A DNA stretch of 61,157 nucleotides, filler included, from Dugesia japonica (taxonomy: Eukaryota): NCBI GenBank assembly GCA_001938525.1. It is 5 parts of 5 records of this genome, joined end to end, with 100 filler letters (N's around TTAATTAATTAA, not from the genome) between each part and the next. Parts side by side here need not be neighbours in the genome. Positions count along the whole stretch, not along the records: positions 1 to 11,545 come from MQRL01318873.1; positions 11,646 to 20,092 come from MQRL01589800.1; positions 20,193 to 30,294 come from MQRL01600829.1; 2 more parts are not named here. The stretch is one strand, 5' to 3'. Position numbers and translations under genes: made by a program. This document shows, one piece after another, positions 483-30,394 of the stretch (the stretch's first letter is position 1; each line of letters starts with the position of its first letter). The notes beneath the pieces are model-generated. The model made no database searches. It was not told the DNA's origin and was given only the letters and a program-made list of their open reading frames with translations.

Positions 483-898
483 TTACATAACAGATAGATT
501 TGTGACGGAACCGCTCAGGCCCATCAAATCCCTCATAATCGCCATTTCCTCTTCTTCAGCCTGCGATTCAAACATGTCGTTCTGCGAAAGGCTACATTTC
601 ATATCTGCTACTGGCTCAGTGTTATCTACTGCAGTTGCTTCCGGCTCAGTATCCTCAATAATGGCCATTAGCCGATCTCGTTGTGCCGTGAGCAGCTGTA
701 GATTGGCTTCTTTAATTACGAGTTGCAGATTGGTCATATTCAGGTCTGCTCTCAAACTGGACAATTCATTTCATAATGTTTTCTCTCGTTTTTGATCATC
801 TCTTGCACCTCCGACCACTCAATGTAAAAACGACCATTGTCATCTATGTACGGCCAGATGTAACGGGGCCTTCTGCTCGCTTGCCTGGTTTTATGCAT
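483..898 (-). pseudogene. Coiled-coil cassette copy 1: 3' exon with a 1-nt frameshift near 770
   Basis: Acceptor tttcttAG then MHKTRQASRRPRYIWPYIDDNGRFYIEWSEVQEMIKNERKHYE, frameshift, NELSSLRADLNMTNLQLVIKEANLQLLTAQRDRLMAIIEDTE...SVM*. AATAAA at 476-481 (- strand). GC-richer than flanks. Shares CAGGCCGAAGAA (1000-1011, -) with 23761-23772. Confidence 0.55.
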
Positions 899-2327
899 CT
901 AAGAAATTTAATTATTATCAGTTTCGACATTTTTAACCAAATTACAATAAAATGAAATAATAAATAAAATAAATTATAAAAACATATAATTTGTCACTAT
1001 TCTTCGGCCTGCGGCCTAATATGGCTTCGTCCCCATTCCTAGAAGGTTAACCAGAGAAGATGACAGCCAAAACTACCATCTTTCCTCGTTCTCCTTCATC
1101 CGAATTCTCAAAAGATGTCCTTATTATTATCATTTTAGAAACTTATTAACTACATCACCGAATGATCTAAAATTAACACTACACTAATTTTTCAATATTA
1201 CGGAAACAGTTACATCGTACAGAACATTGCTGGTTGTAACAATAACAATTCTCAATTCTATTGAAATAATATATTCCTAAAATTTATGACAAATTTTAAT
1301 TGTTGAATAGCACAAAAGAAAGAAATTTGTTGGTTTAATTATTTATTGAATTCTCTCGTTAAGAACAAAATTAAAATTCATATTACTACAAAAAACCCAG
1401 AAAAAATAAAATTTTTAAAACATAAAGAATATAATCCAATTCTTTCCTAGAAAAATTCTCGAATTTTTCAATTTGACTGAGTCCCCGTATTATATCTACT
1501 CATAATCTTTCTCATAAATTTTCTCCTGACTTCTAGACACCATTTCAAGAATCTCAGTTTCTCATTCTCATTCACCGAGATTCACATTTTAGTCTCATAG
1601 AATTATCGAATTTCTGTTGCGTAATTTCTCATTTCCATATTCATTAAGTTTACGTTTTTTAACTCATAATTCCCCAATTTCAACTTTACCAAAATCTCTC
1701 GTACGATTGGAACTACGATCATCCATCACAAAATGTTGGGACGACACTCAGATAATAATTTTAGATATTTTAATAATAAATGGAGTTTACTTTTTGTCGC
1801 TGTATTCCTCCGGATTTTTCTAGAATATTGAAGGCCAAAACACTCGTTTGTAGTTAGTTAATATATATTTATCGATAACACTTTCGGAATATTGTTTATA
1901 ATTATAATGATTTTATTAGATTCAAGAAATTTTTCAACATAAAATTTTTAAAATTAAACATTGCCGATTTTCGCTGTGCAACTATGTTTTATTTCTTTCT
2001 CGATTGTTGGATTGGGCAGTTCTCATTGCTCGCTCAATCGTTGGTCCTCATTTTGAAATATCTTCGTCCTATTGGCTAATGATGCCTGCCTCTCAGTGAA
2101 TTTGATGATCATCGCACCACAACTTTTGTCTTATTCCTGTCACTGTATGCACTTCTTTATCCTTAAATTGATTGACATCAAATTTGGAAAAACCGAATTC
2201 CTGTCGTCAGGAGAATGTCCTTGTTCTCGCTTTCTGGTTTTTCATCTGAATCATCATTTCGAAAACCAGAATTATCGTTCGATATCGGTGACTGAACCTG
2301 TTTTCATTGTTAATTAACTCGTTAATT

Positions 2328-3093
2328 AACATCAATATTTTATCAAATAAATCAGACATGTCCAAAATACAGCCCTTGTTATGAATTTATGCGAACCTGG
2401 ATTAATTTTTCAATATTAGATATTTACCTTCCAATAATTAGTAGAATAAATTAATAAATGAATATGGCCGTAGAGGTCCTTTATTTTTATTATATTAGTA
2501 GTAGTATCATCCATAGTATACATTTAACTGCACTATTAATCCTTTTAAATCTTTTCTATAAAATATGGGTCTTCCCTGCTCAATTTTCATTTTTTTTCTC
2601 CATTTCCTACACTAGCTGCATAATGATTATAATAACGATAGTGAAATAATAATAATATTAATTATAATAATAACAATATTAATAATTAATGTAATCTCAT
2701 TTCTGGTCCAGCACGGATTTTTATTTATTTTCTGCTCATTTTCGTTTCGATTTTCATTTTATTATTAGTTCGGCAAATTTGGTATTCCATTTCACTTAAA
2801 ATATTTTTTGGCGTTCTAGCCCAACAAATATAATTACCAGTGTAAATGTATTAAAAAAATATTTTTTCGGTCATTTTGGTTTTGAAGTGTTACCCTATAG
2901 TACAGACAAGTATAAAAGTTGTCAATTTTTATAATGGAATCTTTTTAAAAAAATTAAGTAGTATTGAGAATTCATTCTACTAATTATTGGAAGGTAAATA
3001 TCTAATATTGAAAAATAAATCCAGGTTCGCATAAATTCATAACAAGGGCTGTATTTTGGACATGTCTGATTTATTTGATAAAATATTTATGTT
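2328..3093. repeat. Long inverted repeat (foldback/MITE-like), arms about 125 bp
   Basis: 2328-2452 (..atcagacatgtccaaaatacagcccttgttatgaatttatgcgaacctggat..) is the near-perfect reverse complement of 2968-3093. Confidence 0.85.
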
Positions 3094-4125
3094 TTATTAT
3101 GGTTTAAATATAAATATACATATGTTCTTTACAAGTTTAAATTAAATAATATCACTGCCAAAGCCCCAACCAAACCATTACACAAGATTCTGTGAAGGAT
3201 CGCTCAAAACGTTTTTAATTTGATAGATTTCGTTTCGGTTATGCAAATCTTCAAAATCAGAGTCGTGGACACCCTGATGCAGTAGTGGACAATGGAAACT
3301 TGTAGATTCACTTTGAAGGAAATTCACATGCAATAGATCTTAGTGTTAACCCGACAACAGTTGGTTTACATTTGTATTCTTTGTAAAGGTGAAGAACCTG
3401 AATAAATGTGTTCCACGTGTCCTTAATGTTACCTTACTTTTACTCATAGGATATTTTTTCCACCAGACTTTAGTTTTAAAACATCTGGATGATTTCATCA
3501 AGAAAAAAAATTTGTGGACAAAAAATCAGTCGAAAATAACTCGTCTAATCTAAAGCTATAGTTTTTTATTAACGTGGAGTAAATCGGCTTGTATCATGTT
3601 TGCAAAAATTCGTTGAAGCCAATGGTAGTTACTTTAAGGAATTTTTAATCGGAATTAGCTTATGCATCTTAACATCTTTTTATTACAATTTTCAGTAATT
3701 TCGTATAAAACAACCTCAATATAATATGCAATCAATAGTGTCTGTGAAATTCGTGTATTTAAAAGTAATAAATAAACATTAAATTAATAAAGAAGTTAAA
3801 TCACATTAAGTTAAATGTTAAATAATTTTTAAATAAAATATCAGTTAATATTAATAAAAATTTTAAACTATTTAAACTAAAACTGTTAACAAAATTTTAA
3901 ATGTAAAATTTCTTTGTGCCTAAATAATTTTTGGACAAATAAAATTTAAAGAATAGTAAGCTGGGATAAATTTTATTTCAGAAAATAATAATTGTATATC
4001 AATATTTTCACAAAACAAATAAATTATTTTTTGAGATGTTGCTTGTTAAAAAAAGTCAAGAGGTCAAATATGAACCATTCGTATTGAAGAAGATATGATG
4101 ACTAGTAAAAAACAGTAATCTTGAG

Positions 4126-4679
<554 letters not shown>

Positions 4680-5089
4680 ATTTATGTGTATAGTAATTGA
4701 ATTAGTTTTAGTATTATTTAGTTTAAATGTATTTTTTTAAAATATGTTATCAGCCAATGAAAATTTTAATAGATTTTATTTAATTTTTTAGGAAATCCAA
4801 AGTTTAAGGAGTGTTTCGTTGATTCTGTAACATAGCAGTTACGTTTTATACCTGATATTTAAATAAACAAAATTTTTTAATTATTTTTCGATATTTTATT
4901 ATTATCAGCCCAAAAGGATTGAATTGTTTGTTATGGTTATACATAGTTGTATTAAATTACATTTTCTTAAATAAGGCAAGCAAATTTCTGATTATTTTAT
5001 CAAAATCATAATAGAAATAAAAATTTTTACATATAAAAAAAAATTTTTTTTCTTAAGAAAATATTTAAGAATGTTTCAGAAATATTGTT

Positions 5090-7186
5090 AGTCGAATATT
5101 AAAAAAAACGGAATATTTGTTTAAATATTGTTTTTTAAGATTTAGTTATATTTTGAACTTATTGAATAAATCTGTTATAGAAATTAAGACTTTTGATTTA
5201 ACTGGCGATCCAGCCCAGCTGAACCCAATTACTTGAAACCAGGAAACCAAAGCAAAAAGGATCTATGAAGCTTTGTCTAAAGAGTCTAGGAAATTACTAA
5301 CCCCTAAAATTACGAAATTCTCTTGGAATTATGACGAAGACCCAGCAAAATGATTAAATGAAATTTTAATTTTTGCAGAATCAAACAGCTATGATTTATT
5401 ATCAATCTTTCATTTATTATTAGACGGTGATGCAAAATTGCTAGCGAATGGTTTTTAAAGGAAAATTTATAAAATAAAAGTCATTTCTCCGAATTATTGA
5501 AGAATGCAGTGGAATTCGACAAAAAGAAAATGAACGCTTTGAAAACTTTGAATTAAGATCTTTAAGAATAGTCAAAGAAATATTTGAATCAGGATTGACT
5601 GTGCAGGAAATGATTCAACAAATAATCAAGAAAAGAGCTAAGAAAATTATTTGCTCCTAAACCAGAAATTAAGCCGGGTAAAATGAGAAAGTTGGGTCAA
5701 AATTTTGAGAAGAACGATGAAAATTTTGGTGGGTCAAAGATAAATAAGTTGACTTACTCAGAAGTGGCAGCTGCAAGTTGCAGTCCGAGAATTAAGAAAA
5801 TTGATTTAAAAGGTTCTAACTATCATAAACCTACGAATAATGAAATTGAAAAAGCAATTCCAATTGCTGAAGAATTTAATAATTCCAGCAGAGAAGGTCA
5901 ATTTAGAAATATGCCAACAGTTTCCATGAAGTTTATTACAAGGAAATTGTACAATAGATCTGTTTGTTTTTTTTGTTTTCTTCTTCATTTAAAACAACTA
6001 AAATAAGACTTTTGATTCAATTCTTCTTGCTTTTTGAATGCTTCTTCCAACACTTGCCTTTCCAAATTTATGTTTCCAAAATAATAATAAATTTAAACAA
6101 ATTATTTTAAACATTTTAATAAATTATTTAAATTATATAAAATACAAATTTATTTAAAAATAAAACAACTCAAATTTATTAATAATTTTCCAAATTTTCA
6201 ATTAAATTAATGTCAATTTTGTATGCGTCGGAGAATAAGTAGTGAAAAGGTTCAAGAGAAATTTATTCCGCGCCAAGTTAGTAATCCTATGGAACAAATC
6301 GTTATTGATATAGCATATATGGATATTGGTCGATCAAATAAAAGATATATGATTTTTATCATCGATAAATTTAATAAAATGATTAGTCTTACTTCAACAA
6401 ACAATCAAAATGATACCGCTGTATAAAGCACTCTACTAAACCACTGGATTTATAAATTTTGAAAACCACAGAAAATTGTGTCAGACCGTATGAAGTATTT
6501 GAATGGAAATTATTACAAAATCTTGATAGTAAGCTTAATAATTCATGGATCTTTACGTCTCCATATGAACATAAATCTAATTGATTAGCTGAACGAGCGA
6601 TCAGAACAGTTCGAGACCTGATAGTGACTTCAATGGAAGCGGGAGAGGAGGAAAAATCTTGGGACGAGAATCTTCCTAGAGTAGAGTTTGCATTCAATCG
6701 TACTGTATCTAAGTCAATGGGATTCTCACCAATGGAAATCATTTATAGGAGGAAAATAAATATTCACACAAATAAGGAACACAGCTTTGGAGAGGATGAA
6801 ATTATAAATAAAGCTTATGATAATATTAAACAAGCATCACAGACAATGATAAATCAAGGAAAAACTGTGTTAGTCGCGAGTTCGAAGTAGGTGAAAACGT
6901 GTTAGTAAGAAAAGACCCCTAGAAACGGAAGAAGAATGATTTACTCTACGAAAGTTCATATAAAATTACTGAATTTCTAACACCTCATCAAGTTCGGTTA
7001 GAAACTCCACAAGGTTTTAGATTTAGAAGAATCTTATGGTTAAAGAGATGCTGATTCTAAGAGAGGAGGAGAAGTTGAATATTTAAAAATACTGAATGTT
7101 TGTTTAAATATTGTTTTTTAAGATTTAGTTATATTTTGAACTTATTGAATAAATCTGTTATGGAAATTAAGACTTTTGATTTAACT
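5090..7186 (+). mobile_element. Internally deleted Ty3/gypsy LTR element with 114-bp AGT...ACT LTRs
   Basis: LTRs 5090-5203 and 7073-7186 (about 6 mismatches by eye). TSD TTGTT at 5085-5089 and 7187-7191. PBS TGGCGATCCAGCC (tRNA-Arg-like) and PPT AAGAGAGGAGGAGA. Degenerate integrase (PMEQIVIDIAYM..IIDKFNK, AERAIRTVRD, WDENLPRVEFAFN, GFSPMEIIY). No RT/RNaseH seen. Confidence 0.92.
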
Positions 7187-7242
7187 TTGTTGAATCCTAA
7201 ATAATAAATTTTCCTTTGTTAAATGTTGTTAACGTCATAGTA

Positions 7243-7457
7243 CAGCGGTTCCATAACTTTGCAGATCAAGGAACATTTCTCAAAAATAATAATTCTGGGG
7301 ATCATTTTTTCATACAAGGTCCTAATAATAAAATATATCATATACAGGTTAACATTTATTTTATTTATTAATTGGTATTTAGTTTATTTTTCATCGAACA
7401 CATTTTGATCTTCAACGGAGCGCCGATGTTCTGTGGAATATCATTTGGGAACCACTG
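7243..7457. mobile_element. hAT-type MITE
   Basis: Ends CAGCGGTTCCATAA...TTTGGGAACCACTG. Flanks tcaTAGTA / aacTAGTA look like a degenerate 8-bp TSD. Confidence 0.7.
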
Positions 7458-7671
7458 AACTAGTATATAATCAACAAATTCAGATTTAAATTGTCACATA
7501 TAATGTCTAGTTAATTGAATATTAATTTGAAAAGTTTAGTTTTTTGAAATAAAAATTAAAACTTTGAAAACTGTATATAAAAATTACATGATTTTAGTTT
7601 GAAAAATCAAATTAAATCTTCATTGAAAACTTAAAAAAATATGTTAAATATTTTATTAATTTCTAATTAAG

Positions 7672-8163
7672 GTAAAAAGTCAACAGATTTTCGAAACGGA
7701 ACAGTATTTCCTTCATGTCTTTATAGGCGCCGTGTTAGTGACGGTACTTTAAGCAATTTAAAAACCTCAAATAACGATAATTTCATTGGAAGTCTTGATA
7801 TTAGTGATTTGCCCGATATCGATTCTTCATGCATTGATGATTGTCAATCATCATCAGCTAAGAGTAGCAATGATTGCGAAGATTTTTTGGATAATCGATC
7901 AGTTTTGACATCTGTATTAGACACAGATAGTTTAGAACCACCAAACACTTCTCAAAGTGCCAAATATGTCCCGAAATCATTTCACGCTGATGTGTACGAT
8001 ACATTGTTTGCTTTGCAAAGTCTCAATTCGTATACCGCTTCTACTGATGATTATCTTAACAGAGTTCGATCAGTTTATGAAGGGCGTATTTTATCTAAAC
8101 CTTCAGACAAGGCACAAACACCACTTGTCAGACGACAAACGATCAATACCTCAACTACTGAAG
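7672..8163 (+). CDS. Internal phase-1/phase-1 exon of an unidentified Ser/Asp-rich protein
   Basis: taattaAG acceptor, 492-nt open frame (GKKSTDFRNGTVFPSCLYRRRVSDGTLSN...RRQTINTSTTE), donor G|GTAATT. No recognisable domain. Confidence 0.6.
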
Positions 8164-11545: not shown

Positions 11546-11645
11546 NNNNNNNNNNNNNNNNNNNNNNNNNNNNNNNNNNNNNNNNNNNNTTAATTAATTA
11601 ANNNNNNNNNNNNNNNNNNNNNNNNNNNNNNNNNNNNNNNNNNNN
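11546..11645. other. Artificial scaffold linker (44N-TTAATTAATTAA-44N)
   Basis: Exactly 100 bp with a six-frame stop spacer; the same structure occurs four times. Confidence 0.97.
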
Positions 11646-13502
11646 CTATCAATATATATTTATTATCTAAATTTAATTAATGTACAATATTTCAGTCTAC
11701 AAACTGTTAATGCTAACGAGCTGTGTCTGCACTCATGACTCCTCTATTAGACTAACGTCGTCATGTATTATAAATCGATATCAGATTTTACTGCTAATAA
11801 ATTTCGCTCATCACTGCGTGCCACGATTGACTTGGCATTATCAGTTTGGGCTCAGACTTAAGCATGAATATTTTTGTGCATTGTAATCGGTGACATGATC
11901 ACATTAGAAACAATATAACTCATAATCAAGTATGTGTGTATCCAAGAAATGAGTAACTCTAATATTTCAGTCAGTAACCACCGTGTGGATTATCACTTTT
12001 AAATAACCATGTTATAACTAAAAATTCTTAAGCCAGGTCATTAGTCCAAATGAATCACATTAATCAACTGCTTAGGATATGAATTAGTATTTCGAAGTGT
12101 TTCAATTCCAAAATACATTGGTATCTGTCGATTAATTGTAAAACATACTCTACCTGAATTATACATGGATTACTTCTGGAATATTGGTGTGATGGACTTT
12201 TATTAACTACAAATCTCATTAGTGTCCGACTTGAGCTAAGGAGAATTGTTATGCTCTAAAATACAATCTTGTGTGTGATCTCACTTAGTTACTGGATTAT
12301 AATTATCATCCTCAAGTTCTTTCCCACCTCAACGTTATCTGCTATTGATTCCAACTTTGCTGTTAATGGATAATTTTACTATTGCCATGAAATTATAATT
12401 ATTCTCGTTGAATGCTATTACCATTAATTTCAATGTGGCCACGTATGAGTTATCCTTTTTATATTTAAGTGATGTTATTATGTTTTATTGACTGATATTA
12501 TTAAATCACCTATTATTCTTAGTATTGAGTAAACTTTATCCCTTTTAAATTAATTTTTTATTTAGGGTGGAAACATTGTCAGCATTGTTATAGTACCATG
12601 TTACTGATAAATTTATTAAAATGGTGGGAGTGAGTTATGAATGGCATCTAATATCGCCATTCTCCCAGTTGCAACGCCTATTGATACTGGAATCGACTTT
12701 TTCGGGTAGTGTGATGTTAAATTTGGTAAGAATTCAAAATCTAGAGATATACACCTAATAGGGGATAAACATGGGCAATTCCCACTAACATTATGAGGCG
12801 TGAATAAGAATTCACTCATTTGTACTGATTCGGCCCCAATTATAATTTTTTATTCGTACTAGGATTATTATCAATGATATCAGTAAAATTACGTTTATTA
12901 TTTTTATTATCATTATCAGTATCCTCATCGTTATCAATGCTATTATTATCATTAATATTCTTTGTCTTATTCGTATGGTTGTTCCCCGTTACTACACAAA
13001 AAATAATTGAAGTATAACTGTGTCGATATAAAGTTAACCTTGAATATAATATAACCACTTACATAAGGCTATTTCGCCCAGTATACGCCATAATTTACTG
13101 AATAATTTTACGACTTTATTGGGTCCTGATAATTTTGTTTAGGTAAATGTCTAGGGTATTGAAAGATACTTTAAATTACATATGACAGGAGATAAAGCGA
13201 TCACGACGAAAACAACTGATCGGCCCCCTCCTCTTTCCGCATGCTATCCTCTCACCTGGTGAGTTGGATTTACAATGCTTCGCCGAGATGTTACCGTTAA
13301 ATTATAATGTAGACCTGGATGAAGAAAGTTAATAATATTGTTAAAACATTCTCTAATCATGACAATTTCGTTTAAATAAATAATAATGCAGTTAGGTTGT
13401 TAAATGTTGATCGATTTGTTTTTGTGTGTATACCATATCATGATCTTAACTTAATTATAATAAATCATATTATAGTGGAATTCAAATGGTAAATCTTGAT
13501 AG

Positions 13503-14913
13503 ATCGCCGAACCAGCCGCATCTATGTTAAGTGGCACAAGAACCCGTACAGTCGGGACGCAGGGGTTCTTCTGGACCGTTCTAACTTGTCACCAGAAGAA
13601 GCAAATGAAAAAAGGCACTGGGACACTACAGAGCGCCAGGCCTATTATGACCGGTGCGGTCCTAACCGAGCTCGAGAGGTGTTCCGCGCGGTTGACACTG
13701 TTTCTTCGGATAGCCATGGTGAAACGACTACGACCAGAGAGTAGCGCGATGGCCCATCTGTGATTCCGATCACCACTCCGAACTCACCCCGGTTTTCTGG
13801 GCTAGGTGCCTTCATCGATAATATGTTGGATCGACTTCGTGGCTCAGAAAATTAACTGCGTGTAATTTTGAGTAGTAATAATAAAATTCTTGTATAACTA
13901 GGTCTCGTAGCTGTCTTTTTAAAAAAAATTTTACTTTCATTTTTTTACGTAAATAAGATATTTGTTTAAGTATTAACCCATTAATGACTTGTTGAATTTT
14001 GTATAAATATTGATGATTTTCTCTTTTACAGTTCATTCATCGCTAAATCGGTCCACCACTCCAAACAAAACGTTACGCGACACGAGCGAAGACCAGGAAA
14101 TAACATGGAACTTTACCGCCTTGCAAAACGACTATGGGAGGCCAACACAGCTACTGCAGAATGTAAGGTAAAAAGGTATAAAAAGAAATGCATAGCATTC
14201 CGCCAAGAAGCTGAGGTCTCCCATGCCCAAGAGAGGCTTTGGAAAGCTCAAATCGAATCCTTTGCCGAAATCATCCGGTTCCTCCATGACCGTGAAAATA
14301 AACAGGTGAATGATGTTCTTGAATTAAGGAAAAGATGCTGTTAAAACCATTGATGGTGGATAAGGCCACCCAAACACCACACACTTGACTACTTATTTTA
14401 CTAACTTGTTAAACTATAAATAAATATCTTCTCAGTTCGTTAACATTTGTTTGTCATTCATTCTATTTTTAACTCGTAACTATTTTATCAGCTAATTAAG
14501 TCGTAAATTGTATAAGTTAACTTCCATTCTAATTATTGCTATTTGTTTAGTGCCATGAATTCAGTTACCCACCAGCCAGCGTAGATAACATAGACTTATA
14601 CAAAAGCTTCTCGTTGAACAGCACATCAAAAGACAAACCGAGCGTGCCTTGCTTCATCATCTGACACAGCGCAATAGACTGATTAAAAATCTCAATTTAA
14701 TAGTGAAAAAACAAGGGGAGTTAGTTGAGCAGTCAAAACAGTTACTCCTCCATAAAATCGATTTCCTACAGCGTTATATATCAGATTTGTCTAGCCAGCT
14801 AGGAAATGAAGGACGACAACGATGATGGTGCCACGTTTAATTTTTTGCCTGAAGAGCCTACCCAGTGGTTAGACCCGGGTGCTCTCGATTCCATGTAATT
14901 ACTAAAAAATAAA
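13503..14913 (+). pseudogene. Coiled-coil cassette copy 2: exon 13503-13805 plus two candidate alternative last exons (14032-14344; 14551-about 14900)
   Basis: AG acceptors at 13501-13502, 14030-14031 and 14549-14550. ORFs DRRTSRIYVKW..., ...NNMELYRLAKRLWEAN...FAEIIRFLHDRE...*, and ...KLLVEQHIKRQTERALLHHLTQRNRLIKNLN...*. AATAAA at 14419 and 14908. In-frame stops and phase mismatches indicate decay. Confidence 0.55.
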
Positions 14914-15299
14914 TGTTAATTTTCGAATATTGTTGATTTATTTACTAACGGTATGAGAGGGAAAAATAAGGAACCCTAACCAAAGGTATACGAGTGAGTA
15001 CTCCAAGTAAGTGTTGGGAGTCAGCCGCTCTATACTGATAATCTAGTTGAGGGACACTGGATAAATTCTTGAACGGATCCTTTGCGGGCTGTTTTCTCCG
15101 GCCACATTTTTTTTCTACATCTAAATCAGGTGGGACCCCAACAGATCAAATTTTGGCTTGGTATGTCCGTCAGAGTTATCGTGTTTATTTTGTGGTGCAT
15201 TTTAGAAATTTACAGATAGAAAGTGGTTGTATAAATGAGCAAACTCATAATCGATTGTGCGATGAACATCCGAGTTGATAAATTTAAGATCCCGCAAAG

Positions 15300-15767
15300 G
15301 CTCTTTGGATTTTTGAAAATAAAATTTAATTATATGGTCATTCCTTTGTTTTTCCGATCTGAAATTAATTTAGGTTCGTCATTTTTACTTTCATTAATTA
15401 ATTTAATTAATTCTTTTAAATTTATTTTCTTTCACCAATTATTAGTTCAATATGATTTTCTTAGTTTGCCCAATGAACTAATTGTTATTCATGATTTTCT
15501 TTATCTTTCTGATAGCTTCTATTTCTTCTTTTCTTCCTTTTGGCTTAATTATTTCTGGATTATTTCTTGCTGTAACTTTAGATTTTGCTNNNNNNNNNNN
15601 NNNNNNNNNNNNNNAACCTGGGTTTTTCTTTTGATTATTCCTTTCCTTCAATGAATTGTGACTTTCCTTTGTCTGGGTTCTTTGTTTCGCCATTTGGTAA
15701 CTATGTTTTCATTTTCGCTATACCTACCGCCATTTTTATTTTACATTCCAGGTGTTTCACCCCAACA
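15300..15767 (-). mobile_element. Terminal region of an LTR-like repeat (TGTTGGGGTGAAACACC end)
   Basis: The 17-nt end GGTGTTTCACCCCAACA is identical at 15751-15767 and 37671-37687, with looser similarity extending inward. Confidence 0.6.
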
Positions 15768-15949
15768 GTAATATAATATCGTTAATATAATAAATGATTA
15801 CTTTTACAAAAATTTATTTATATAATCAAAACGTTTAGGCGTATTATTTTTCACTTGAAGTTTTAACCACAGTAGGTTTTAACTTTTCAACAGTGATTTT
15901 AAAAATTGGTAATTAGAGTAAGATAGAATATACTATTTATACTAGTGGC

Positions 15950-16540
15950 TATCTAATGGTCATGTGTGTAAATTAAATAAATTATCAATATTTACAATAA
16001 ATTTACATGATTTTAATAAATAACGAAAGAAAGTAATTCATTAAATGAAAGAATGAAATTAATAATTAACAGGAAAAAAATGAAATAAATTAATTATTGA
16101 AGAAAAATTAAAATTAGATTAAATTTTTGCTTAGAAATGAAAAATGTCAATGTAATTAATAAATTAAAAAGAAAAGAAAAATAAAATTAATTTTTTAAAA
16201 AAAATAAATCAGACGAATCAAAATTTATATGAAAATATGGCAAAACGAGGACTTTCCAGTAAGCTAGAAATTAGTGTTTAAGAAAATTCAAGTCAAGAAA
16301 AAATCAGAGATTTCAAAAATTTAAGTTAGAAAATCGTAGCTAGAGCAAGAAAAAAGTTAAAAATTGAACCCAAACCAAAGGAATGCGAGCATGCACTCGA
16401 ATTACGGGTTACGAATTACCGGCTCCATTCCAAAAATCTAGATTTTTGAGACTCTAGATCAAATTCTTCGCGGGGTTTTAGTAAGCCAGACCATCCTAGA
16501 TTCAACTTAAAATTAAACTAACTCTATGGAACCCCAACAG
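15950..16540 (+). repeat. Inverted fragment of the same LTR-like family
   Basis: aagttagaaaatcgta and its flanks (16260-16360) match the reverse complement of 37050-37160. Ends in ggaaccccaaca. Confidence 0.5.
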
Positions 16541-17640: not shown

Positions 17641-18479
17641 CAATATACCTTTTATAAATACTTACTCAAAATTATCGACAGGAAAACCAATTGGTAAGAA
17701 GTAATCCCACTGAAAGAAGTATCCGCATCAAACATTTGAAAAAATATTAAATTAAATTGAATTAAACCTAAAATACTTACAAATGTAAATCAGAATGNGT
17801 TAATATTCGTTTGTTCCATTCCCATCAATAAATTGCTTATTAGTTATCAGTGTTCCCTTAGTAAATAAATATCATAACTAGAAATCTTGTTTCGATTACA
17901 TATCTTAAGAAAACAGATTATTAGCATAATAACTGTAAAACCTCAAATGATAATGTTGCATTCCTAATAATGCTCATTTTTCATGCTTAGTATGTCGCTA
18001 AAATTTAGCCAACCATCACGAGAAGAATTATTACACGAACAGAACCCATGTCATACAAAACTGTAAAAGATCAGAAAGTAGCAACTAGAAAGCCAAGAGC
18101 AGGCTCGACAATTGAAGGACAAAAATAAAATCTTAAGCGACCGAGTATGTGACAGTCACAGGGGGGATGCAGAAAAATCGCATGCTTTTAGACATCAACA
18201 TGAGCTATGCTGATCAAGCGCTCACAGCATTGGTAAATACAACAAGACTGTGGTAGGAATTCAACAAGCATGCAGCGGCGTCATCAGTCATTTCGATAAC
18301 AGAAGACATATTCGGGTATTAAATATCATGACCAATGAAATAAATACTTTTACCGTTTGGTAATTTGTTGAAGAAGTATCAAATATCACTGAGAACAGAA
18401 ACCCTCCTTTAAATTTTTCTTCACAAGACGGGATACAGCAAATTCCCGCATGAATTCGAAGAAAGTAAACCATTGAAAA

Positions 18480-19050
18480 TTATGGAGAAACAAGAAGTCT
18501 ATAAATCCTCGGAGCCCATGTTGGAATGAAGAAAAACTATGAAATATAAATTAGATTTTGCTTTTTGGTCAGAAATGATGAGATATTTAAAATATAATAC
18601 AATGCTAATTTTGCATCCGCAGAAAAATCAGTAGTAAAATGATAAGTTTATTCCACGTGAAGTTTGTAATTCAATCGAACAAATTGTTACGAATATAGCA
18701 TATATGAATATCGGTAGATCAAATAAAATATATATGATTATAATCATCCATCAATACATAAAAATGATTGGTCTTACTGCAACAAACAACCAGAATGAAG
18801 CCATTATAGACCACTGTATATACAAATTTTTAAAACCGAAGAAAATGGTGTGGGTCCTCTGTAGTGTATTTGAGTGTATTCTTACAAAACCTATATATTA
18901 AGCTTAATAATTCTACAAATGAGCATAAATGAAAAATCAGAACATTTCGAAACATGATAGCAGAAGAAAAATCTTGGGATGAGTTTCTTACCAGAATAGA
19001 GATTACATTCAATTGTAAAGTATCAAATGCAACAATAATCACCTATGTAA
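18480..19050 (+). mobile_element. Ty3/gypsy integrase remnant, same family as 5090-7186
   Basis: AHVGMKK; FIPREVCNSIEQIVTNIAYMNIGRSNKIYMII; EEKSWDEFLTRIE, closely parallel to 6260-6690. Confidence 0.75.
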
Positions 19051-20092: not shown

Positions 20093-20192
20093 NNNNNNNN
20101 NNNNNNNNNNNNNNNNNNNNNNNNNNNNNNNNNNNNTTAATTAATTAANNNNNNNNNNNNNNNNNNNNNNNNNNNNNNNNNNNNNNNNNNNN
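20093..20192. other. Artificial scaffold linker
   Basis: 44N-TTAATTAATTAA-44N. Confidence 0.97.
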
Positions 20193-20803
20193 GTATAAAT
20201 ATATATAATATAAATGTTGTAATTTTTTGTACTGGTACCGTTATTGATTTTCACTTCGAATCGAAACCGTTGCTAACGAGGTGGCCCCAAAATTCTATTT
20301 ATACATTGTCTAGAGTACTTGATGTGAAAAGTGCTTCGTTCTCAATATAAAGGGTAGAAGTGCAGTGTCGCACTTGATCGGTATCGAGCATTTGAGATAA
20401 AATTGTTTCAGTTCTGACATTTATAGTCCAATCAAGACAAATTTGGTATCAACGGATACATAATCGGATGATACACATTTCTATGATTTTTGCAAAGTCA
20501 AGGAAATTAATACTCAATTCAATAATTGGTGAACTTTTTCCAATATAGAAATCGAGGATTTGATACAATTCGATGGAGAATTAAAAACTACTTAAACATT
20601 GCCTAAAGAACTATTTATTTTTTTTAAAAGAACGATTTATTTTGTTTTGATGCAGTAATCTTAAATTTTCTATTTTTATCATATTTTTACAAGTTTATTG
20701 TTTTAATTAACTCAATTAGTATGTATTTTATGTAAACTTGTTATAGTATTTGTAATTCTGATCCGATGGCGACAAGTAAGGTATCGTTGGATATGTAATA
20801 AGG

Positions 20804-21495
20804 CAGGGGTTCCCAACCTTTTTTGTATTTCGCACCCCCATTAAAACTATTATTTTATGGCATGCAATTTATGGAAAAAGATGGTAAGTAGGATAAAAAG
20901 TTGCAAATCAAACAAAATTATTAAAAATTTTATTAAACATATTATGAAATCATATTTAATGACTTTTTTGTTCTTGTTTTTGTTTTATTAATTTTTCGAA
21001 TCTTGGATTTTTTTCGCTAATTGCAATTCGCAGATCTGATTGTGTATTCAAGAGATTTCTATGCTTGACTTTTTTTATGATAGAAAGGAACTAAATTCAG
21101 ATTTGCACAAGAAAGTTGTGACAAATGGAATAAGGAGAGATAGTGATTTCTTCCCAATCCTTGGGTAAAAATTTAAAGTTGAACACCAGAACTTTTCAAC
21201 AGTTTCATTTTTGAATTTTATTTTGAGATTACGATTAGCCCTCAAATCAATTAGTTCATCTTTCAGATGGTCATCATCTGAAATTCTTTCCTAATTGTAC
21301 AAAAAATGGTTTTTAATCCATTTTTCTGAAGATTTTAACTCTCCAAAAATGAATTATTTATTTATTTATTTAATAACATTGTAAAATTTCAATTTCTTTT
21401 AAAAATTACATTTCAAAATATCAATGGATTATATAATTTCATTAAAAAAATGTTTTAAAAATTGATTATTGTTAATTTTACTTCGCACCCCCAAA
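20804..21495 (-). mobile_element. hAT (Buster-like) remnant with transposase C-terminus
   Basis: TIR CAGGGGTTCCCAACCTTTTT. Minus-strand IGKKSLSLLIPFVTTFLCKSEFSS..KHRNLLNTQSDLRIAIS. Subterminal TTCGCACCCCCA is repeated at about 20829 and 21482. Confidence 0.8.
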
Positions 21496-23549
21496 ATTTT
21501 ATTTCGCTGATGGATTTTTCTATGATTGTATGTATGTTTTGAAAAGCGAGTTGAAATTTTTGTGTTCGGAGATCATTTTTCATAAAATCATTTTATTTAA
21601 AAATATTTAAATTTTGGATGAAAATTTAAATAACATGAGTATTTGTTTTAAAATTTTAAATAACAATTTAATAATAAAGTAAAAATTTTGTGTAAAATTT
21701 TAAAAATGATCACCAATTAAAACATGGAATTTTAATTTGTTTGAATAAACAAAAAGTATTGGATATTGTTTTTGTTTTGTGAATACATCTTTTATGGAAA
21801 TGAGTTTTGTCATTAATGATCCGACGAGTACTTAAAACTCNNNNNNNNNNNNNNNNNNNNNNNNNNNNNNNNNNNNNNNNNNNNNNNNNNNNNNNNNNNN
21901 NNNNNNNNNNNNNNNNNNNNNNNNNNNNNNNNNNNNNNNNNNNNNNNNNNNNNNNNNNNNNNNNNNNNNNNNNNNNNNNNNNNNNNNNNNNNNNNNNNNN
22001 NNNNNNTTTTAAAAATAGTTTGTATGCGCATTGCATTCATGTAATATGTATATAGCATGCTTATAAGTATAAATAATAAACATTTTGTACAAGATATAAG
22101 AAGTCCAAAATTTTCAAAACATTTATTAAACGTATAACAACATTGTTTTAATTAATTACGAAATAGATCACAAAATCTTTGCAATCAAGATTTTCTTTTT
22201 GAACATCCTTAATGTTAGCTACAAGTTTTTCAAATTCTTCAACAATTTCTTAAAAATATTCGCGTTTACCGAGAAGTTCAAAAAATATTTGTTAAATCTT
22301 TAATAAATCTAATATTTGTTAAACGATTTCTGCATTGGTCTGATACTATATTCGCGTATGACTTCGTTAAGGTCAATTTCTGTGAAAAGTTTGATGTGAT
22401 TCCAATAAATTTTCGGAGTCCAGTATATACTGAATCTTTTCGTAGGTTTTTGAATTTTTCTTCAAAGATTTCTATAATGATTTCGGAAATAATAATTAAT
22501 TAATTGGATAAATAACCATTATGACTTATAACCATTCCTCCTTTTTGATTCCTATAGTGTCTTCTGCTATTTCGTTTTCAATATCCACATATTCTTGTTT
22601 CACAGGTTTTTCCAATCCATTTTCTATATCATATTTATATTCCGTATTATATTCATTTTCTTCTGTATAATTGTTAATTTTTTAAATTGATACTAAATTG
22701 ATTTAGTTTATATACATTCCATATAGTTAAATTCAATTAATCAAAAGTCATCTTGAATCTAATTGGTTAATTGAATCTAACCTTTTTCAATTATTTGTTC
22801 TTCTGTTCATGTCAGTAAATTTTTTATCCTGATTTTGATTGGATATTATTAAAAACTATTAATATCTGGTTTAAATTTTTTGATTAAAATTTCTTCGTGT
22901 TTTTCTTCTATGGAGTGCTGATATATAGTAGGAATCTAATATTTCCCAATTTATAATATTTTAGTCAGCATGAATATTATTATCATGTATGAAATGTTTA
23001 AAGACTTCACTCTTCTTCTGTTTGATATGTTATTTGATTCTAGTTCTGATTGTTCCAAAGGTTTCACATATGTATGATTTATTGCATATGGTACAAATAA
23101 TTTTATAAGTTATATTTTTATTACATATTGTTAGGTCTCGTGGGTAAGACTAAAACTGAAAATGCTGAAAATTTTGACTGCAAATAAATTAAATGAAAAC
23201 ACATGTAGGTGATTTTAAATATAAATAATAAAATTAATAACTAAGATAACGAATTTATGTTTCTAAAATTTTATTATAAATAAAGTTTACAAATTATTTA
23301 GAAATTATTAAATTTTACAGTTAAATAGGAACCGCGAAATTTTTGGCAGTAGCGTATAACGCTCTATTTAAAATTTTATAGAAGGAGTGAAAACGGTATA
23401 ACACAACTGACCTGATAAAATAAGAAAGGCGGGACTAATGTTTTCTCACCACACTTTAATATTTAAAGAGTTTTAATTTTAGGTGCAGGATTTTGTGAAC
23501 AAGCAAATTACCAATACGTCAATTTTATAATATTTCAATATTGTTAAAA

Positions 23550-24936
23550 ATGGTAAATAAAAAAAGAATAATAGTATTGTTGGGCTGGAACACTAAATCG
23601 GTTAAGAAAATACAGGTCAGGGAAATAATAAGGTGAGATAATGTTGTGGTATGATTTCTGAGATTATTTTTGTGTATAGATTTATTATATGAATTTCGAA
23701 TGCTGTGTACGGATTATGTATGAAAAATAAGATTATCATTACCATTATTATTAACATTAACAGGCCGAAGAAAGGTTCGCTGTTTGTTATTTTTATTCTT
23801 GCCTGCTTGAAATTCTATTTAATATTAATACCAGAAAAATAAATAAATTTTGTTTATAGATAATGACAGCCTACTTTAAGCCGCACATTCCGCTTGTGCT
23901 TTCAAGTGACGGTGATGAGGGAACATTCTGGATTCCACGGAGGAATGCGGTGGAATTGCTGGATGAGCAGAAATTAATCTTTGAAAAGGAAAAAACAGAG
24001 ATCAAGCAGGGACAACAAGTATTGATTCAAAAAATTCGAGATCTGAGAAAACGCCTACAGGAGCTCCAAAACGACAACCAACGTCTAGAAAGTAAAATGG
24101 CTCAAAGGTAAGTAGAGATGCGTGAAATGGCGGAGGATGACCAGCAGTCCGCTCAACTACTCGCGACTCATCGAGCTTTGACGGAGCGTATGAGTTCACG
24201 ATTAAAACTTCGAATAACGGATGAAACTGGGGTTACGACCGAGGTACGAGACACAGTGATTGTCAAAGTGGAATCGATACTAAATAATGTTGAGTGTAAC
24301 AGAATTCTGTTTTTAATTGGGTTCAATGTTAATGAGAGATTGGGTTTGAGTGATATGTAAGTCACCTTGTTAGTGAAAATTTCTTCTTTCTGCAGATGCA
24401 GTATTAGTTTTAAGATATTTCATTTAATTACTATTTATTAATTTATTACGAGGGTAAATGCGAAGTGAATCTTATTTACTTTGGCCATTCAACAAATTTT
24501 ACGTCAATGTGAATCACTGTAACTTACAATTGTTCTTTCTTCAATTCATATTGTTTACATATCTTATAACATTTATTGCAATTAAATTATGTCTAAAATT
24601 TTAGTGAACAAATCTAATAATGAGAAGATATTGAAAAGAGATGTAATAGCAGCGAAGCAAAGGTGGAAGGATGAGAAGCGCAATTTACGCAATGAAATTC
24701 TACAATTAAAAGGACAACTGAATCGGTCCTCATCAAAATTCGACCAGTTAAAGGAGAAGGAGTTGGCTCTTCAGCAGGCCAACCGCCTTATGGCCGATAT
24801 TATTAAGATATATGCCGATCGTGAGTCCACAATGTTTCACACGCTGCGAACATTGTGGTTAAATGCCAGAAGAGTCAACCGAGTTAATAGCGCAAACAGT
24901 AGATCTAGATGCCGAATGACGGAAGGGAAGCTGTAA
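23550..24936 (+). CDS. Coiled-coil cassette copy 3: micro-exon gene model (23550-23552, 23616-23632, 23764-23774, 24605-24936), 120 aa, plus a degenerate proximal last exon from 23860
   Basis: All introns GT-AG. 3+17+11+332=363 nt in frame: MVREIIRPKKVNKSNNEKILKRDVIAAKQRWKDEKRNLRNEILQLKGQLNRSSSKFDQLKEKELALQQANRLMADIIKIYADRE...GKL*. AATAAA at 24944. Confidence 0.5.
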
Positions 24937-27900
24937 TCAGATAAATAAATATTAGTGAACATGGATAGCGTCTTTTAAATTATGATTTTGTTGGGTAAAG
25001 TAAATTAAGAGATTAAATTTTTAACTGAGCAGGTGAGAATTATTGCTGTCAGAGTTCAAAAATCTAAGGAGTAAGACGCGATACCACAAAGTNGCGCTGA
25101 ACCCGTGAAATAGAGGGGCATGTCACAGAAGTGACACAAATGCTTGTGGTTTTTAGGTTGCCCCTAGATATGACCATGATACAGCTAAATGAGAATGAGA
25201 TCGGAGAATTTAGAGGAAATTAAAACATCCAAATCCTAAAACCCCACATAAATATAGATATAATATTCAATAATTAATTTTTTTTGTAACTAAACTCTAT
25301 TATCTCCTTGGCCTAATTTGATTGATTGCACGTGAAGTTTTTCAAAAAAAAATTTTCTCATGGACTGAATCTGGTCTCGATGACCGAAAATCAGGTCGAT
25401 CACAAAGGTCGAACAGCGGATCCATAAAACCGAATGCGATCAAACGAAAAATCAAAAAATTGTTGTTTAAATTTTATCATTGAAAGGTATTTGGATATCA
25501 GAAAATTGTTGTTTAAATTCTAACATTGAAAGGGAAAATTATTATTAAAATTCAATCAATAAAAGGTTTTTTTGGAATTCGGAAAATTTCTATATTAAAA
25601 TTATATTGATTGAAGGTAATGAATTTGATAATTATAAAATTTTTGATAATAATAATTTGATAATAATAAATAAATTTAAATTTTTTGTTAAACAAAATTT
25701 AAATACAGGGTGCCGCAAGTAGAATTGGCGCCATTTTCTAAATGTTAAATCTTATAAAAGAAATGCATTTATATCATTATTTTATTGATAAATTTAATGT
25801 GATCAATGCTTTATTCAAAAATGGAAATATTACAAAATTTCAACAAATTTTAGNNNNNNNNNNNNNNNNNNNNNNNNNNNNNNNNNNNNNNNNNNNNNNN
25901 NNNNNNNNNNNNNNNNNNNNNNNNNNNNNNNNNNNNNNNNNNNNNNNNNNNNNNNGGTTGATTCAGTCTTTAACGTCGAACTGGTTGAAAACAGAAAAAA
26001 TCACGATCCAGCAGAACAGCGAGTTAGAACCATTTTTTGCAATATAAAATTTGAATGTACAATGTTTTTTTTTATTTTTGGATTGCTCTTGATTAACAAG
26101 TTAAAGCAATTCAGTTAAAATAAAGTTAATTGATGACTTTAATTTATTATTTAAAGATAATCTAAATTCAGTTAAATTAAATTATGTAAACTAATTTATT
26201 GATTTTAATTCGGTTGATTTAAAATTAAATTTGATTAATCTAAATTTTAATAAATAATCAAGTTCTTGAAACTAAATTTTTTTTTGTTTAATTAACTTAA
26301 TTCATTTAATTTAATGATTTAATTTCAATTGAGTTTGAATACTTTTGCTTAAATTACATTCTTTGGTTCCAAATATTTAGAAAATTCTCATTAATAGTTC
26401 ATTTTATTTAAAATTTCATTAAATTTGTTTGAATAATAATTTTACTNCGATAATGTAATAAAACAATTTTGCGATTAGGGGCCAAAATAAAGTCATTTCG
26501 TTTTTCTTTCTCGTCTATTTGAATGAAACAATAAGTTTTTACCGACGAATTAATTCACATTCAATAGGACACTAACGAAAATAATTTAAATAACAGATTA
26601 AACTAAAAATGTAGTATCACTGAATTTATTAAAAGGATTTTACTTTAAATGAGAGATTTGTTTTTATGGGAATTAAGATGGACTAACACTCTGGTCCCCT
26701 GGACCCAAATAAAATGGTGAACTCGTGCACTCCTATTAAATGGGGAGTCACCGGAGCGATCCCGAAGATGATCTTAGGGCAATCATTAAAATGCTTGCGG
26801 TTTTCATGAGCATACATCTAAGTGATTATTTTGAATATCAAACTCATGAAAACCCAACAGTATAGCCTCTAAGATATTTACTTATCACTGTAAGAATTAT
26901 TAATATAAATTAATGACTCAAATAACCTTTAAAAGATTTTTGTATAACTCAAAATTAAATTAATGAATTAAATAAGTTTCACCTTTTGAAATGCTAGGTT
27001 CAGCACATATCAATTTAATCAATTCAAATAATTAGCTTTATTGCTATAAATTTATATTTAAAATTTTTGTTGTTTTAACTGATTTTCTGATCCCTTTATA
27101 TATTAAAAAATTATAGGTCGTCCTACATCAAAATAATGAAATAAAATACCACATGATTTTTATCTTACTAATGATAGTAGATTATTTGAACTTAAAATAG
27201 AAGTAACTATAAAATCCTTTTATTTAGAAAATAATATAAATTATTATTACTATTTTTAGTAATATTTTTATAATAATTGATTACATAAATTATAACCTTA
27301 GCAGATTAAAACAACTTTATAATTAAAATTTATTAATTAATTTATTGATTATTTATTATTGTAAGCCTGACTTATAACCCAAACAAATCATCCCAAACAA
27401 TATTTACTTGTTATTATATTTACATTTTGGTACACGTGAGTTATTCTTTGGTTTTTTTAGTTGAATTCCCAAAGGTGTTGTGTTTTGAATATTATCCTAG
27501 GTGAATATGTAATCTTCGATTTGTAAATAATATTATGCATCAATTGACTAAATTTTTCTCTGATATATGGTAGTTAAATAATTGTTTTGTTTCATTTATT
27601 TGAATGATTTTTCATCATTTTGAAATGGTTTGGGGTTTTACTATATTTCATTTCACATAAATATTAATTTGGTAAGTTCCTAACTTTTGTATTATTCCCC
27701 ATTTATGATTGGTTATACCGTATTTTATTCTTTATATTAACCATTTATTATAAATTTATTTGCATTTCAACATCNNNNNNNNNNNNNNNNNNNNNNNNNN
27801 NNNNNNNNNNNNNNNNNNNNNNNNNNNNNNNNNNNNNNNNNNNNNNNNNNNNNNNNNNNNNNNNNNNNNNNNNNNNNNNNNNNNNNNNNNNNNNNNNNNN

Positions 27901-30294: not shown

Positions 30295-30394
30295 NNNNNN
30301 NNNNNNNNNNNNNNNNNNNNNNNNNNNNNNNNNNNNNNTTAATTAATTAANNNNNNNNNNNNNNNNNNNNNNNNNNNNNNNNNNNNNNNNNNNN
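30295..30394. other. Artificial scaffold linker
   Basis: 44N-TTAATTAATTAA-44N. Confidence 0.97.

What the first reader, a model, noticed from the sequence alone, without database searches (positions are those of the whole stretch)
483..24949. Dispersed family of spliced coiled-coil mini-genes (three divergent copies in 25 kb)
Seen: three GC-richer islands (483-1011 -, 13503-14913 +, 23550-24949 +), each on a different contig, encode short heptad-rich ORFs bounded by AG acceptors and AATAAA. They share peptide motifs: RLMADIIKIYADRE (copy 3), SFAEIIRFLHDRE (copy 2) and RLMAIIEDTE (copy 1). DDNGRFYIEWSEVQEMIKNERK (copy 1) resembles DGDEGTFWIPRRNAVELLDEQK (copy 3). DNA landmarks are shared too: CAGGCCGAAGAA about 90-100 nt upstream of the main exon in copies 1 and 3; AAATGGTAAAT and AATATTGTTAAAA in copies 2 and 3; TGAGAGATT downstream in copies 1 and 3. 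I recognise no gag, pol, env or transposase in them. Inference: a high-copy, TE-carried accessory gene family that I cannot match to any described protein.
Basis: partly seen in the sequence, partly recalled or inferred. Interest (0 to 1): 0.8.

Follow-up and report, generated by a model that had tools for sequence, protein, structure and literature searches.

The report
Undescribed small helical transposon accessory gene
The window holds broken copies of a small gene that occurs many times in this animal's DNA and has 20 unnamed relatives in public sequence data; it likely belongs to an LTR retrotransposon, and its predicted coiled-coil protein would most likely help control the element's own RNA.

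Summary

The second ORF of copy 3 (ORF B, 24589-24936) belongs to an undescribed family of ~100-aa proteins with the motif LxQxNRxLxDxxKxYADRE. It has 20 unnamed relatives, no Pfam or PDB match, and is predicted to be one long helix.

Copy 1 is related to copy 3's first ORF (ORF A) by collinear DNA anchors (0 of 500 shuffles reach the score), but it does not carry the family motif. Copy 2 shows no significant link.

Laid contigs show many diverged copies peaking over the two ORFs, with an excess of synonymous differences in ORF B. Copy 3 runs on into a high-copy purine tract plus TGTCAC, which looks like the start of a 3' LTR. The N at 25093 is not a contig join.

Copies 1, 3 and 4 are broken. 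Splicing is inferred, not shown, and one RNA run gave 1 read in 10.5 million.

Verdict: a likely accessory gene of a Gypsy-type retrotransposon, with a regulatory role of the CERV/Rev kind inferred.

The parts
23550..23552 (+). ATG followed directly by a donor-like GTAAAT; possible first coding exon (inferred)
   Evidence: Sequence. ATG plus the two micro-exons joins in frame to exon B; ATG alone joins in frame to exon A; 3 other joins tried hit stops (2 of 5 open).
23616..23632 (+). 17-nt micro-exon candidate (AG before, GTGAGA after)
   Evidence: Sequence only; no RNA support.
23764..23774 (+). 11-nt micro-exon candidate; matches 1008-998 in copy 1
   Evidence: Shared 12-mer, with GT exactly 11 nt after CAG in both copies.
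23860..24360 (+). Copy 3 ORF A: heptad-rich, 166 codons, with an internal stop at 24109-24111
   Evidence: Depth peak at 23861-23963 (1112 against 16-19 in flanking bins, run X1). The stop is not shared by the 3 X1 contigs and 1 X9 contig listed there; run X6 shows no other letter there. No outside homologue.
24589..24936 (+). Copy 3 ORF B: member of the YADRE family; likely acceptor at 24603-24604; frame break near 24864, with the family's TVDLD tail in another frame (about 24896-24916)
   Evidence: 58% identical to P0001; 18 relatives; E=2e-21 against a profile of outside relatives only; depth peak 24685-24890; 8 of 16 listed differences synonymous, 3.5 expected, p=0.009.
25061..25170 (+). 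Very high-copy 3' module: hairpin 25077-25096, purine tract 25106-25120, TGTCAC..GTGACA 25121-25136; likely polypurine tract and start of a 3' LTR
   Evidence: Depth 709 against 3-5 background in X4; one 1122-nt contig (X4 record 29) carries both ORF B and this module. 2 of 88 TGT[ACT]AC sites in the window have a tract of 11 or more purines in 13; only this one has GGGG. No partner 5' LTR in the window.
17992..18310 (+).
   Evidence: Profile E=3.8e-8 among 1626 tiles; second-best of 116,002 positions in the ungapped scan; DNA z=4.65 against ORF B while the upstream intron gives z=-0.46; stops.
18480..19030 (+). Gypsy-type integrase remnant directly 3' of copy 4, same strand
   Evidence: 73% DNA identity to 6209-6544, which hits Pfam rve at E=6.5e-4, below the curated cut-off; the remnant itself has no Pfam hit.
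483..898 (-). Copy 1 main exon: A-type by position and DNA, frame break near 771-773
   Evidence: Collinear anchors; DNA score 234 against shuffle maximum 212 over 1030-371 (region chosen after seeing the anchors); exon alone not significant against ORF A; protein p=0.40 against ORF A and 0.003 against ORF B.
998..1008 (-). Copy 1 11-nt micro-exon candidate, 99-nt GT..AG intron to the main exon
   Evidence: Sequence.
397..456 (-). Copy 1 downstream landmarks, including a donor-like AGTGATATGTA shared with 24349
13484..14913 (+). Copy 2: three short ORFs (13493-13744, 14032-14344, 14589-14825); real GC-richer island, membership not shown
   Evidence: No significant DNA or profile link; weak c2C~ORF A p=0.013; copy number not tested.
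22831..23139 (-). Separate very high-copy repeat upstream of copy 3; reads like a Penelope GIY-YIG end (recalled resemblance)
   Evidence: Depth up to 13,000 in X1; no Pfam support.

Best explanation
The islands of copies 1, 3 and 4 are broken copies of a multicopy two-ORF cassette that likely sits at the 3' end of a Ty3/Gypsy-type LTR retrotransposon, and whose ORF B encodes a ~100-aa soluble protein, predicted to be one long helix, that likely acts as the element's own nuclear regulator. SHOWN: ORF B is a real, conserved protein family; it is multicopy here; in copy 3 it is followed by a purine tract and TGTCAC; copies 1, 3 and 4 are broken. INFERRED, with my odds: carrier is a mobile element (0.85); carrier is an LTR retrotransposon (0.55); the ORFs are made from spliced subgenomic RNA with micro-exon leaders (0.6); the protein self-associates through its heptads (0.6). 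MECHANISM I COMMIT TO (about 0.25): an element with same-strand introns must still export unspliced genomic RNA. The basic helix would bind that RNA or its structured 3' end, and the conserved [TV][VI]xLD tail would dock a host nuclear factor (exportin or SUMO), as CERV does for Cer1 and Rev does for HIV. Copy 2 is probably a different or far older cassette.
For: FAMILY: 5 relatives plus one false hit from 1.84 billion representatives; 18 proteins at E<=1.6e-17; 2 more cluster members; pairwise identity 23-85%, median 44%, with 10 invariant columns. MULTICOPY: 1555 X1 contigs laid on 3.1 kb, 1090 of them under 95% alike; peaks over ORF A start and ORF B; up to 26 contigs differ at one ORF B site. 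CONSTRAINT: synonymous excess in ORF B; exon conserved but intron not between copies 3 and 4; contigs of other copies diverge just upstream of the acceptor-like sites, at 23858 and 24581 (1-2 contigs per run). LTR END: purine tract plus TG, the arrangement described for LTR elements in PMC4558846 (passages); Gypsy integrase beside copy 4. PROTEIN: single helix, pLDDT 91; net charge +4 to +9 before YADRE in 18 of 18; no hydrophobic segment; tail motif in 16 of 18. PRECEDENT: CERV is made from a spliced Cer1 mRNA and is needed to export unspliced RNA (PMC10309623, abstract and passages).
Against: No intact element, 5' LTR or adjoining same-strand pol upstream of the cassette was found. In copy 4 an integrase remnant, not a purine tract and LTR, follows ORF B. 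The AATAAA at 24944 lies before the tract, which a full-length genomic RNA would have to read through. No spliced joint was seen in 8 runs, and the one raw RNA run gave 1 read, under 90% alike, of 10,544,396 read. ORF A has no outside homologue and only a weak synonymous signal (7 of 18, p=0.14). The synonymous test uses only the best-supported listed rows, scored one at a time and not independent. The full SIM-a consensus is met by only 3 of 20 relatives and an export-signal pattern by 6 of 20 others. Short motifs like these arise easily. Nothing here tests RNA binding. The DNA context of all 20 relatives is unknown.
Confidence: 0.5

Rival explanations
1. Same cassette and carrier, but the protein is an anti-silencing or chromatin factor: the helix oligomerises and presents acidic VVDLD tails that bind SUMO and sequester SUMO-dependent silencing machinery.
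For: The tail is kept at the C-terminus whatever the linker length (16 of 18). VVDLD plus acids fits the SIM-a consensus quoted in PMC3631770 (passages): fully in 3 of 20 and as core plus one acid in 9 of 20. Planarian LTR elements are under PIWI-dependent chromatin silencing (PMC8532177, passages); that this genome is planarian is my untested guess.
Against: 11 of 20 relatives, and the window's own TVDLD tail, miss even the loose SIM-a pattern; SIM patterns are short. No binding test was possible.
Confidence: 0.15
2. The cassette belongs to another class of mobile element, such as a tyrosine-recombinase retroelement, a Helitron-like element or a Penelope-like element, and the hairpin-rich 3' module is that element's terminus.
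For: The module folds into nested hairpins; other copies diverge right after 25158-25169; same-strand introns suit DNA-type elements better (established knowledge); a Penelope-like remnant lies 400 nt upstream; giant Penelope-type Terminons carry coiled-coil ORFs (PMC6431247, passages).
Against: No Rfam match, hammerhead included, in the whole window. The Penelope-like piece is on the other strand with about ten times the depth of the ORFs. No recombinase, Rep-helicase or transposase was found next to any copy.
Confidence: 0.2
3. It is a fast-expanding host multigene family whose pseudogenes lie in a repeat-rich region.
For: GT-AG intron-like structure with micro-exons and AATAAA; deep protein conservation.
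Against: None of the 20 relatives carries a name or comes from an annotated genome (5 of the 18 were not looked up separately but have no name in its table). ORF B is linked to a module with far higher depth than itself. Copies 1, 3 and 4 are broken, and RNA is almost absent in X24.
Confidence: 0.1
4. The resemblance among islands is generic coiled-coil and composition noise.
For: True for copy 2 as far as tested; all-against-all BLAST gives best E about 1.5-4 between islands; Pfam, PDB and Atlas hits are generic coiled coils.
Against: Cannot explain ORF B and copy 4 (E 2e-21 and 4e-8 against outside relatives) or the collinear anchors of copies 1 and 3.
Confidence: 0.05

Closest known systems
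CERV of the C. elegans LTR retrotransposon Cer1 (PMC10309623; abstract and passages)
   Same: Accessory protein of an LTR element from a spliced multi-exon mRNA, with coiled-coil helices; the element keeps splice sites in its genomic RNA. This is the functional model I borrow.
   Different: CERV is 517 aa, shares exons with gag and has G and M domains. This protein is about 100 aa, one predicted helix, at the 3' end of the element. No sequence comparison with CERV was run.
sORF1 and sORF2 of Drosophila MDG1-group Gypsy elements (PMC11952523; passages)
   Same: Two small same-strand accessory ORFs per element; sORF2-like proteins are 63-107 aa and sometimes lie downstream of pol.
   Different: sORF2 has a transmembrane segment and an N-myristoylation motif; none of 20 relatives or 6 window ORFs has a hydrophobic segment above 0.96 or Gly at position 2 as called.
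Planarian Burro/GYPSM1 giant Gypsy elements (PMC6431247; passages)
   Same: Invertebrate Gypsy elements with extra domains and accessory ORFs, including an Smc-like motif.
   Different: Burro extras (MATH, BIR, ankyrin, BCL2-like, env) lie mostly within a giant polyprotein; none was detected here.
Coiled-coil ORFs of Terminon Penelope-like elements (PMC6431247; passages)
   Same: Retroelement-borne coiled-coil ORFs of unknown function near a structured 3' end.
   Different: No hammerhead ribozyme; the Penelope-like piece nearby behaves as a separate repeat.
Retroviral Rev, Rex and Rec export proteins (recalled; no call)
   Same: Small, basic, helical proteins from multiply spliced RNA.
   Different: No arginine-rich motif stands out; an export-signal pattern is seen in only 6 of 20 relatives; no Pfam match.

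Membership tests
Ty3/Gypsy LTR retrotransposon (carrier) | Polypurine tract directly before a 3' LTR starting with TG | tested here: met
   25106-25120 then TGTCAC; highest depth of the stretch. Met in copy 3 only; absent after copy 4; beyond the window edge for copy 1.
Ty3/Gypsy LTR retrotransposon (carrier) | Paired 5' and 3' LTRs with target-site duplication | tested here: inconclusive
   No partner repeat in the window; the region is fragmented and no genome is held.
Ty3/Gypsy LTR retrotransposon (carrier) | gag and PR-RT-RH-IN upstream on the same strand | tested here: inconclusive
   No Pfam hit upstream of copies 1 or 3; an integrase remnant lies downstream of copy 4.
Ty3/Gypsy LTR retrotransposon (carrier) | Primer-binding site after the 5' LTR | not testable with these tools
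   No 5' end of the element is in hand.
YADRE family (defined here), copies 3 and 4 | Significant match to a profile of 18 outside relatives | tested here: met
   E=2e-21 and 3.8e-8.
YADRE family (defined here), copies 1 and 2 | Significant match to the same profile or its core | tested here: not met
   Core: 403 and 128 of 1000 shuffles reach the score; whole profile 15 and 71 of 1000; hhalign under 1%.
CERV/Rev-type export factor | Made from a spliced element mRNA | tested here: inconclusive
   In-frame join possible; no junction seen.
CERV/Rev-type export factor | Nuclear, binds the element's RNA, needed for its export | not testable with these tools
   Needs experiment.
Env or sORF2/FAST fusogen | Transmembrane segment | tested here: not met
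   Highest 19-residue hydropathy 0.96 over 26 proteins.
SUMO-interacting motif protein | SIM-a, SIM-b or SIM-r consensus (PMC3631770) | tested here: inconclusive
   SIM-a full in 3 of 20, loose in 9 of 20; SIM-b and SIM-r in 0 of 20.
Penelope-like element or Terminon | Hammerhead ribozyme at the terminal repeat | tested here: not met
   0 Rfam matches at E<=1 in 61,157 bases; a decayed copy could escape.
bZIP transcription factor | Pfam bZIP match with basic region before a leucine zipper | tested here: not met
   1 of 6 members at E=0.049; Atlas feature hit 0.92 with 146 of 256 features shared, weak by the tool's own bar.

The most novel reading that the evidence does not exclude
A widespread lineage of invertebrate Gypsy elements carries a retrovirus-like, multiply spliced regulatory cassette. 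Micro-exon leaders give two small helical proteins, one a 100-aa Rev-like or SUMO-binding factor that acts on a conserved structured 3' RNA element. This would be an independent invention of complex-retrovirus regulation with a new protein family.
Probability: 0.2. Interest if true: 0.8.

Novelty: new variant of a known kind. Interest (0 to 1): 0.5.

Why it matters
Small accessory proteins are how LTR elements export their RNA, spread between cells or escape silencing, and few are known in invertebrates. This one is a tightly conserved family (10 invariant columns at a median 44% identity) with no name, Pfam family or solved relative in the collections searched. It gives a concrete handle: a motif to find intact carriers, and a testable tail motif. 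The value is limited because the copies here are broken, the carrier class is inferred, and the ORF may already sit unnamed in a repeat library that I could not search.

Tried and rejected
GENOME AND DATABASES. No whole genome is held, so no genome-wide count was possible. No listed sequencing holder is on record as RNA; this blank is no evidence on expression. Related loci: none in metagenome contigs with the 2-sequence alignment or with a 22-nt motif. None in viral contigs or prokaryote genomes. ORF A had no homologue among 43 candidates of 91-291 aa; longer forms were not searched. P0004, a repetitive plant protein, was dropped as a false hit. Pfam, PDB and Atlas gave only generic coiled coils. 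Rfam gave nothing. Earlier findings of this scan: 3 look-ups, nothing.

IDEAS DROPPED. A chromodomain reading of copy 2's first ORF and of ORF A's start (recalled pattern) had no support. Exon B downstream of copy 1 and exon A upstream of copy 4 were not found (z -0.1 to -2.1). Copy 2's 3' region does not match copy 3's. The apparent compensatory hairpin in copy 4 (18429-18448, 3' region z=3.6) overlaps codons that read like the integrase linker, so I do not count it. No fold search was run, because a single helix gives no meaningful match.

NOT AVAILABLE. Copy number of copies 1, 2 and 4 was not tested: both read-laying runs went to copy 3.

LITERATURE. 9 searches found no paper describing this family. 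The primary planarian genome paper was not held under the id I tried. No supplements were read, and repeat libraries (Repbase, Dfam) cannot be searched here.

Full report
SETTING. The window is AT-rich (about 25% GC) and full of transposon remnants: integrase, RT, protease and zinc-knuckle pieces hit Pfam. It looks like animal DNA. A planarian is my guess from composition and repeat types; it was not tested, and the run table codes the organism. No genome is held.

CHECK OF THE OBSERVATION. All five peptides and four DNA landmarks are at the stated places. Plain BLAST finds nothing significant between the islands. Copies 1 and 3 share exact words in the same order and spacing: 1011/23761, 456/24333 and 407/24349. 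Their summed length in one diagonal band (51) is reached by 0 of 500 shuffles and 0 of 168 real segments; copy 2 is at chance level against both. Among 21 protein pairs, only c1~ORF B (p=0.003), c1~P0001 (0.006) and c2C~ORF A (0.013) stand out, apart from ORF B~P0001. These are marginal after correction for 21 tests. The claim of separate contigs rests on single Ns; three contigs of related copies run across the N at 25093.

A REAL FAMILY. ORF B of copy 3 found one relative at 58% identity. A two-sequence profile found four more and one false hit among 1.84 billion representatives. A six-sequence profile returned 18 proteins, and two more came as cluster members. All 20 are unnamed records from short ENA, Logan or JGI contigs of at most 2.2 kb. 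They share LxQxNRxLxDxxKxYADRE with 10 invariant columns at 23-85% identity. AlphaFold2 gives one 90-residue helix, pLDDT 91, pTM 0.47. Pfam, PDB and the Atlas give only generic coiled coils. Copy 1 and copy 2 fail the core motif. ORF A matches only as a coiled coil (hhalign 37%) and has no outside homologue. So there are two ORF types: B (copies 3 and 4) and A (copy 3, probably copy 1).

COPY NUMBER AND CONSTRAINT. On 22007-25092, run X1 laid 1555 contigs, 1090 of them under 95% alike. Depth peaks at the start of ORF A (1112) and over ORF B (1208-1646), against 16-19 in bins at 23346-23551. Summed contig depth is not a copy number, but 22 and 26 different contigs differ at single sites in ORF A and ORF B. 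Of the differences listed, 8 of 16 in ORF B are synonymous against 3.5 expected for the same base changes (p=0.009); in ORF A 7 of 18 against 4.5 (p=0.14). I left out the row at the stop, rows past the ORF B frame break and rows outside the ORFs; the tables themselves hide 250 and 58 weaker rows. Between copies 3 and 4 the exon aligns (z=4.65) and the upstream intron does not (z=-0.46).

THE COPIES ARE BROKEN. Copy 1 has a frame break near 771-773. ORF A has a stop at 24109-24111 that the listed X1 and X9 contigs do not share. ORF B leaves the family frame near 24864, and its TVDLD tail lies in another frame. Copy 4 has four stops in the motif frame. Copy 2 was not assessed for breaks against any relative.

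SPLICING. In copies 1 and 3 a GT follows the shared CAG after exactly 11 nt, then an 85-99-nt intron-like stretch ends in TAG. In copy 3, ATG plus 17-nt and 11-nt pieces joins in frame to exon B, and ATG alone to exon A; three other joins hit stops. With a one-in-three chance per join, this is suggestive only. A few contigs of other copies part from the window just upstream of the two acceptor-like sites. But no joint at a predicted intron was listed in eight runs. The seven contig runs cover introns without a break and behave like DNA. The one raw RNA run gave 1 read, under 90% alike, of 10,544,396 read, about 6% of the run. Splicing is therefore inferred.

THE CARRIER. After ORF B, 25061-25158 has far higher depth than the ORF (709 against 31 and a background of 3-5 in X4), and one contig of another copy holds both. 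It contains a purine tract (25106-25120) followed by TGTCAC; only 2 of 88 such hexamers in the window have so purine-rich a front. A purine tract just before an LTR that starts with TG is the standard 3' arrangement (PMC4558846, passages). Against this: no 5' LTR or upstream pol was found, copy 4 is followed by an integrase remnant instead, and the module also folds into nested hairpins that could be another element's end. Rfam finds nothing. I put a mobile carrier at 0.85 and an LTR carrier at 0.55.

HOW IT LIKELY WORKS. The protein has no membrane segment, a basic helix (+4 to +9 before YADRE in 18 of 18) and a short tail [VIST][VI]x[LF]D in 16 of 18. An LTR element with same-strand introns must get unspliced RNA out of the nucleus. 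Cer1 solves this with CERV, made from a spliced mRNA (PMC10309623, abstract and passages). I commit to the same role here at about 0.25: an oligomeric helix on the element's RNA, with the tail docking a host nuclear factor. The close rival is a SUMO-binding anti-silencing factor (0.15): the tail meets the SIM-a consensus of PMC3631770 (passages) fully in 3 of 20 and loosely in 9 of 20, while 6 others fit an export-signal pattern recalled from memory. Neither is tested.

COMPARISON AND NOVELTY. It is not an env or sORF2/FAST protein (PMC11952523, passages; no membrane segment). It shows none of the Burro extra domains and no Terminon hammerhead (PMC6431247, passages). Accessory small ORFs of LTR elements are a known kind; this protein family was not found in Pfam, PDB, three look-ups of earlier findings or nine literature searches. 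I read passages of six papers, no whole texts and no supplements; repeat libraries and the planarian genome paper's supplements, which I could not see, may already hold the element.

VERDICT. Observation partly confirmed; interpretation partly supported. New variant of a known kind; interest 0.5. The boldest reading, a retrovirus-like spliced regulatory cassette in an invertebrate Gypsy lineage, has probability 0.2 and would deserve 0.8.

Noticed in passing
window 5090-7186 (+) and 33225-36701 (-): Two short LTR-bounded elements with complementary content. The first (114-nt repeats, 95% alike) has a gag-like part and integrase but no PR, RT or RH seen. The second (199-nt repeats, 90%) has a zinc knuckle, protease and RT, with an RNase H-like stretch by eye, but no integrase seen. 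Could be plain deletions or partner elements; three literature searches found nothing on such pairs.
   Followed up: partly
window 59042-59448 (+): Zinc-knuckle gag end (Pfam zf-CCHC E=0.007) followed at 59413-59430 by a purine run and TGTAAT, possibly a gag-only element.
   Followed up: no
window 22831-23139 (-) and 49178-49507 (-): Two remnants that read like Penelope GIY-YIG ends (recalled); the first has the highest depth seen, about 13,000 in X1; no Pfam support.
   Followed up: partly
window 2328-2452 and 2969-3093: 125-nt inverted repeat, 97.6% alike, 516 nt apart, upstream of copy 1; possible miniature DNA element.
   Followed up: no
window 25698-25853: Another multicopy repeat beginning near TACAGGGTG, Tc1/mariner-like by recall.
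   Followed up: no
window 14971-15408, 16074-16468 and 37052-37368: An unidentified repeat family present three times, partly inverted, next to copy 2.
   Followed up: no
window 30846-31274 (-): 142-aa open frame with a CQFE-x-G-x-C-x-W pattern that recalls a MAM domain, perhaps a host exon; Pfam gave no hit.
   Followed up: partly
window 39545-41047: AT-rich tandem array with a period near 525 nt and an inverted part.
   Followed up: no
window 57733-57999 (-), 21075-21290 (-), 48780-49061 (-): Fragments that read like mariner and hAT transposases (recalled); no Pfam hit.
   Followed up: no
window 11546-11645, 20093-20192, 30295-30394, 46489-46588: Four identical patterns of 44 N, 12 letters, 44 N, unlike ordinary assembly gaps.
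   Followed up: no
P0005, P0006, P0015-P0017, P0021: These six form one clade (100/99 support) with a shorter tail that fits an export-signal pattern, while most of the longer-tailed members fit a SUMO-binding pattern.
   Followed up: partly
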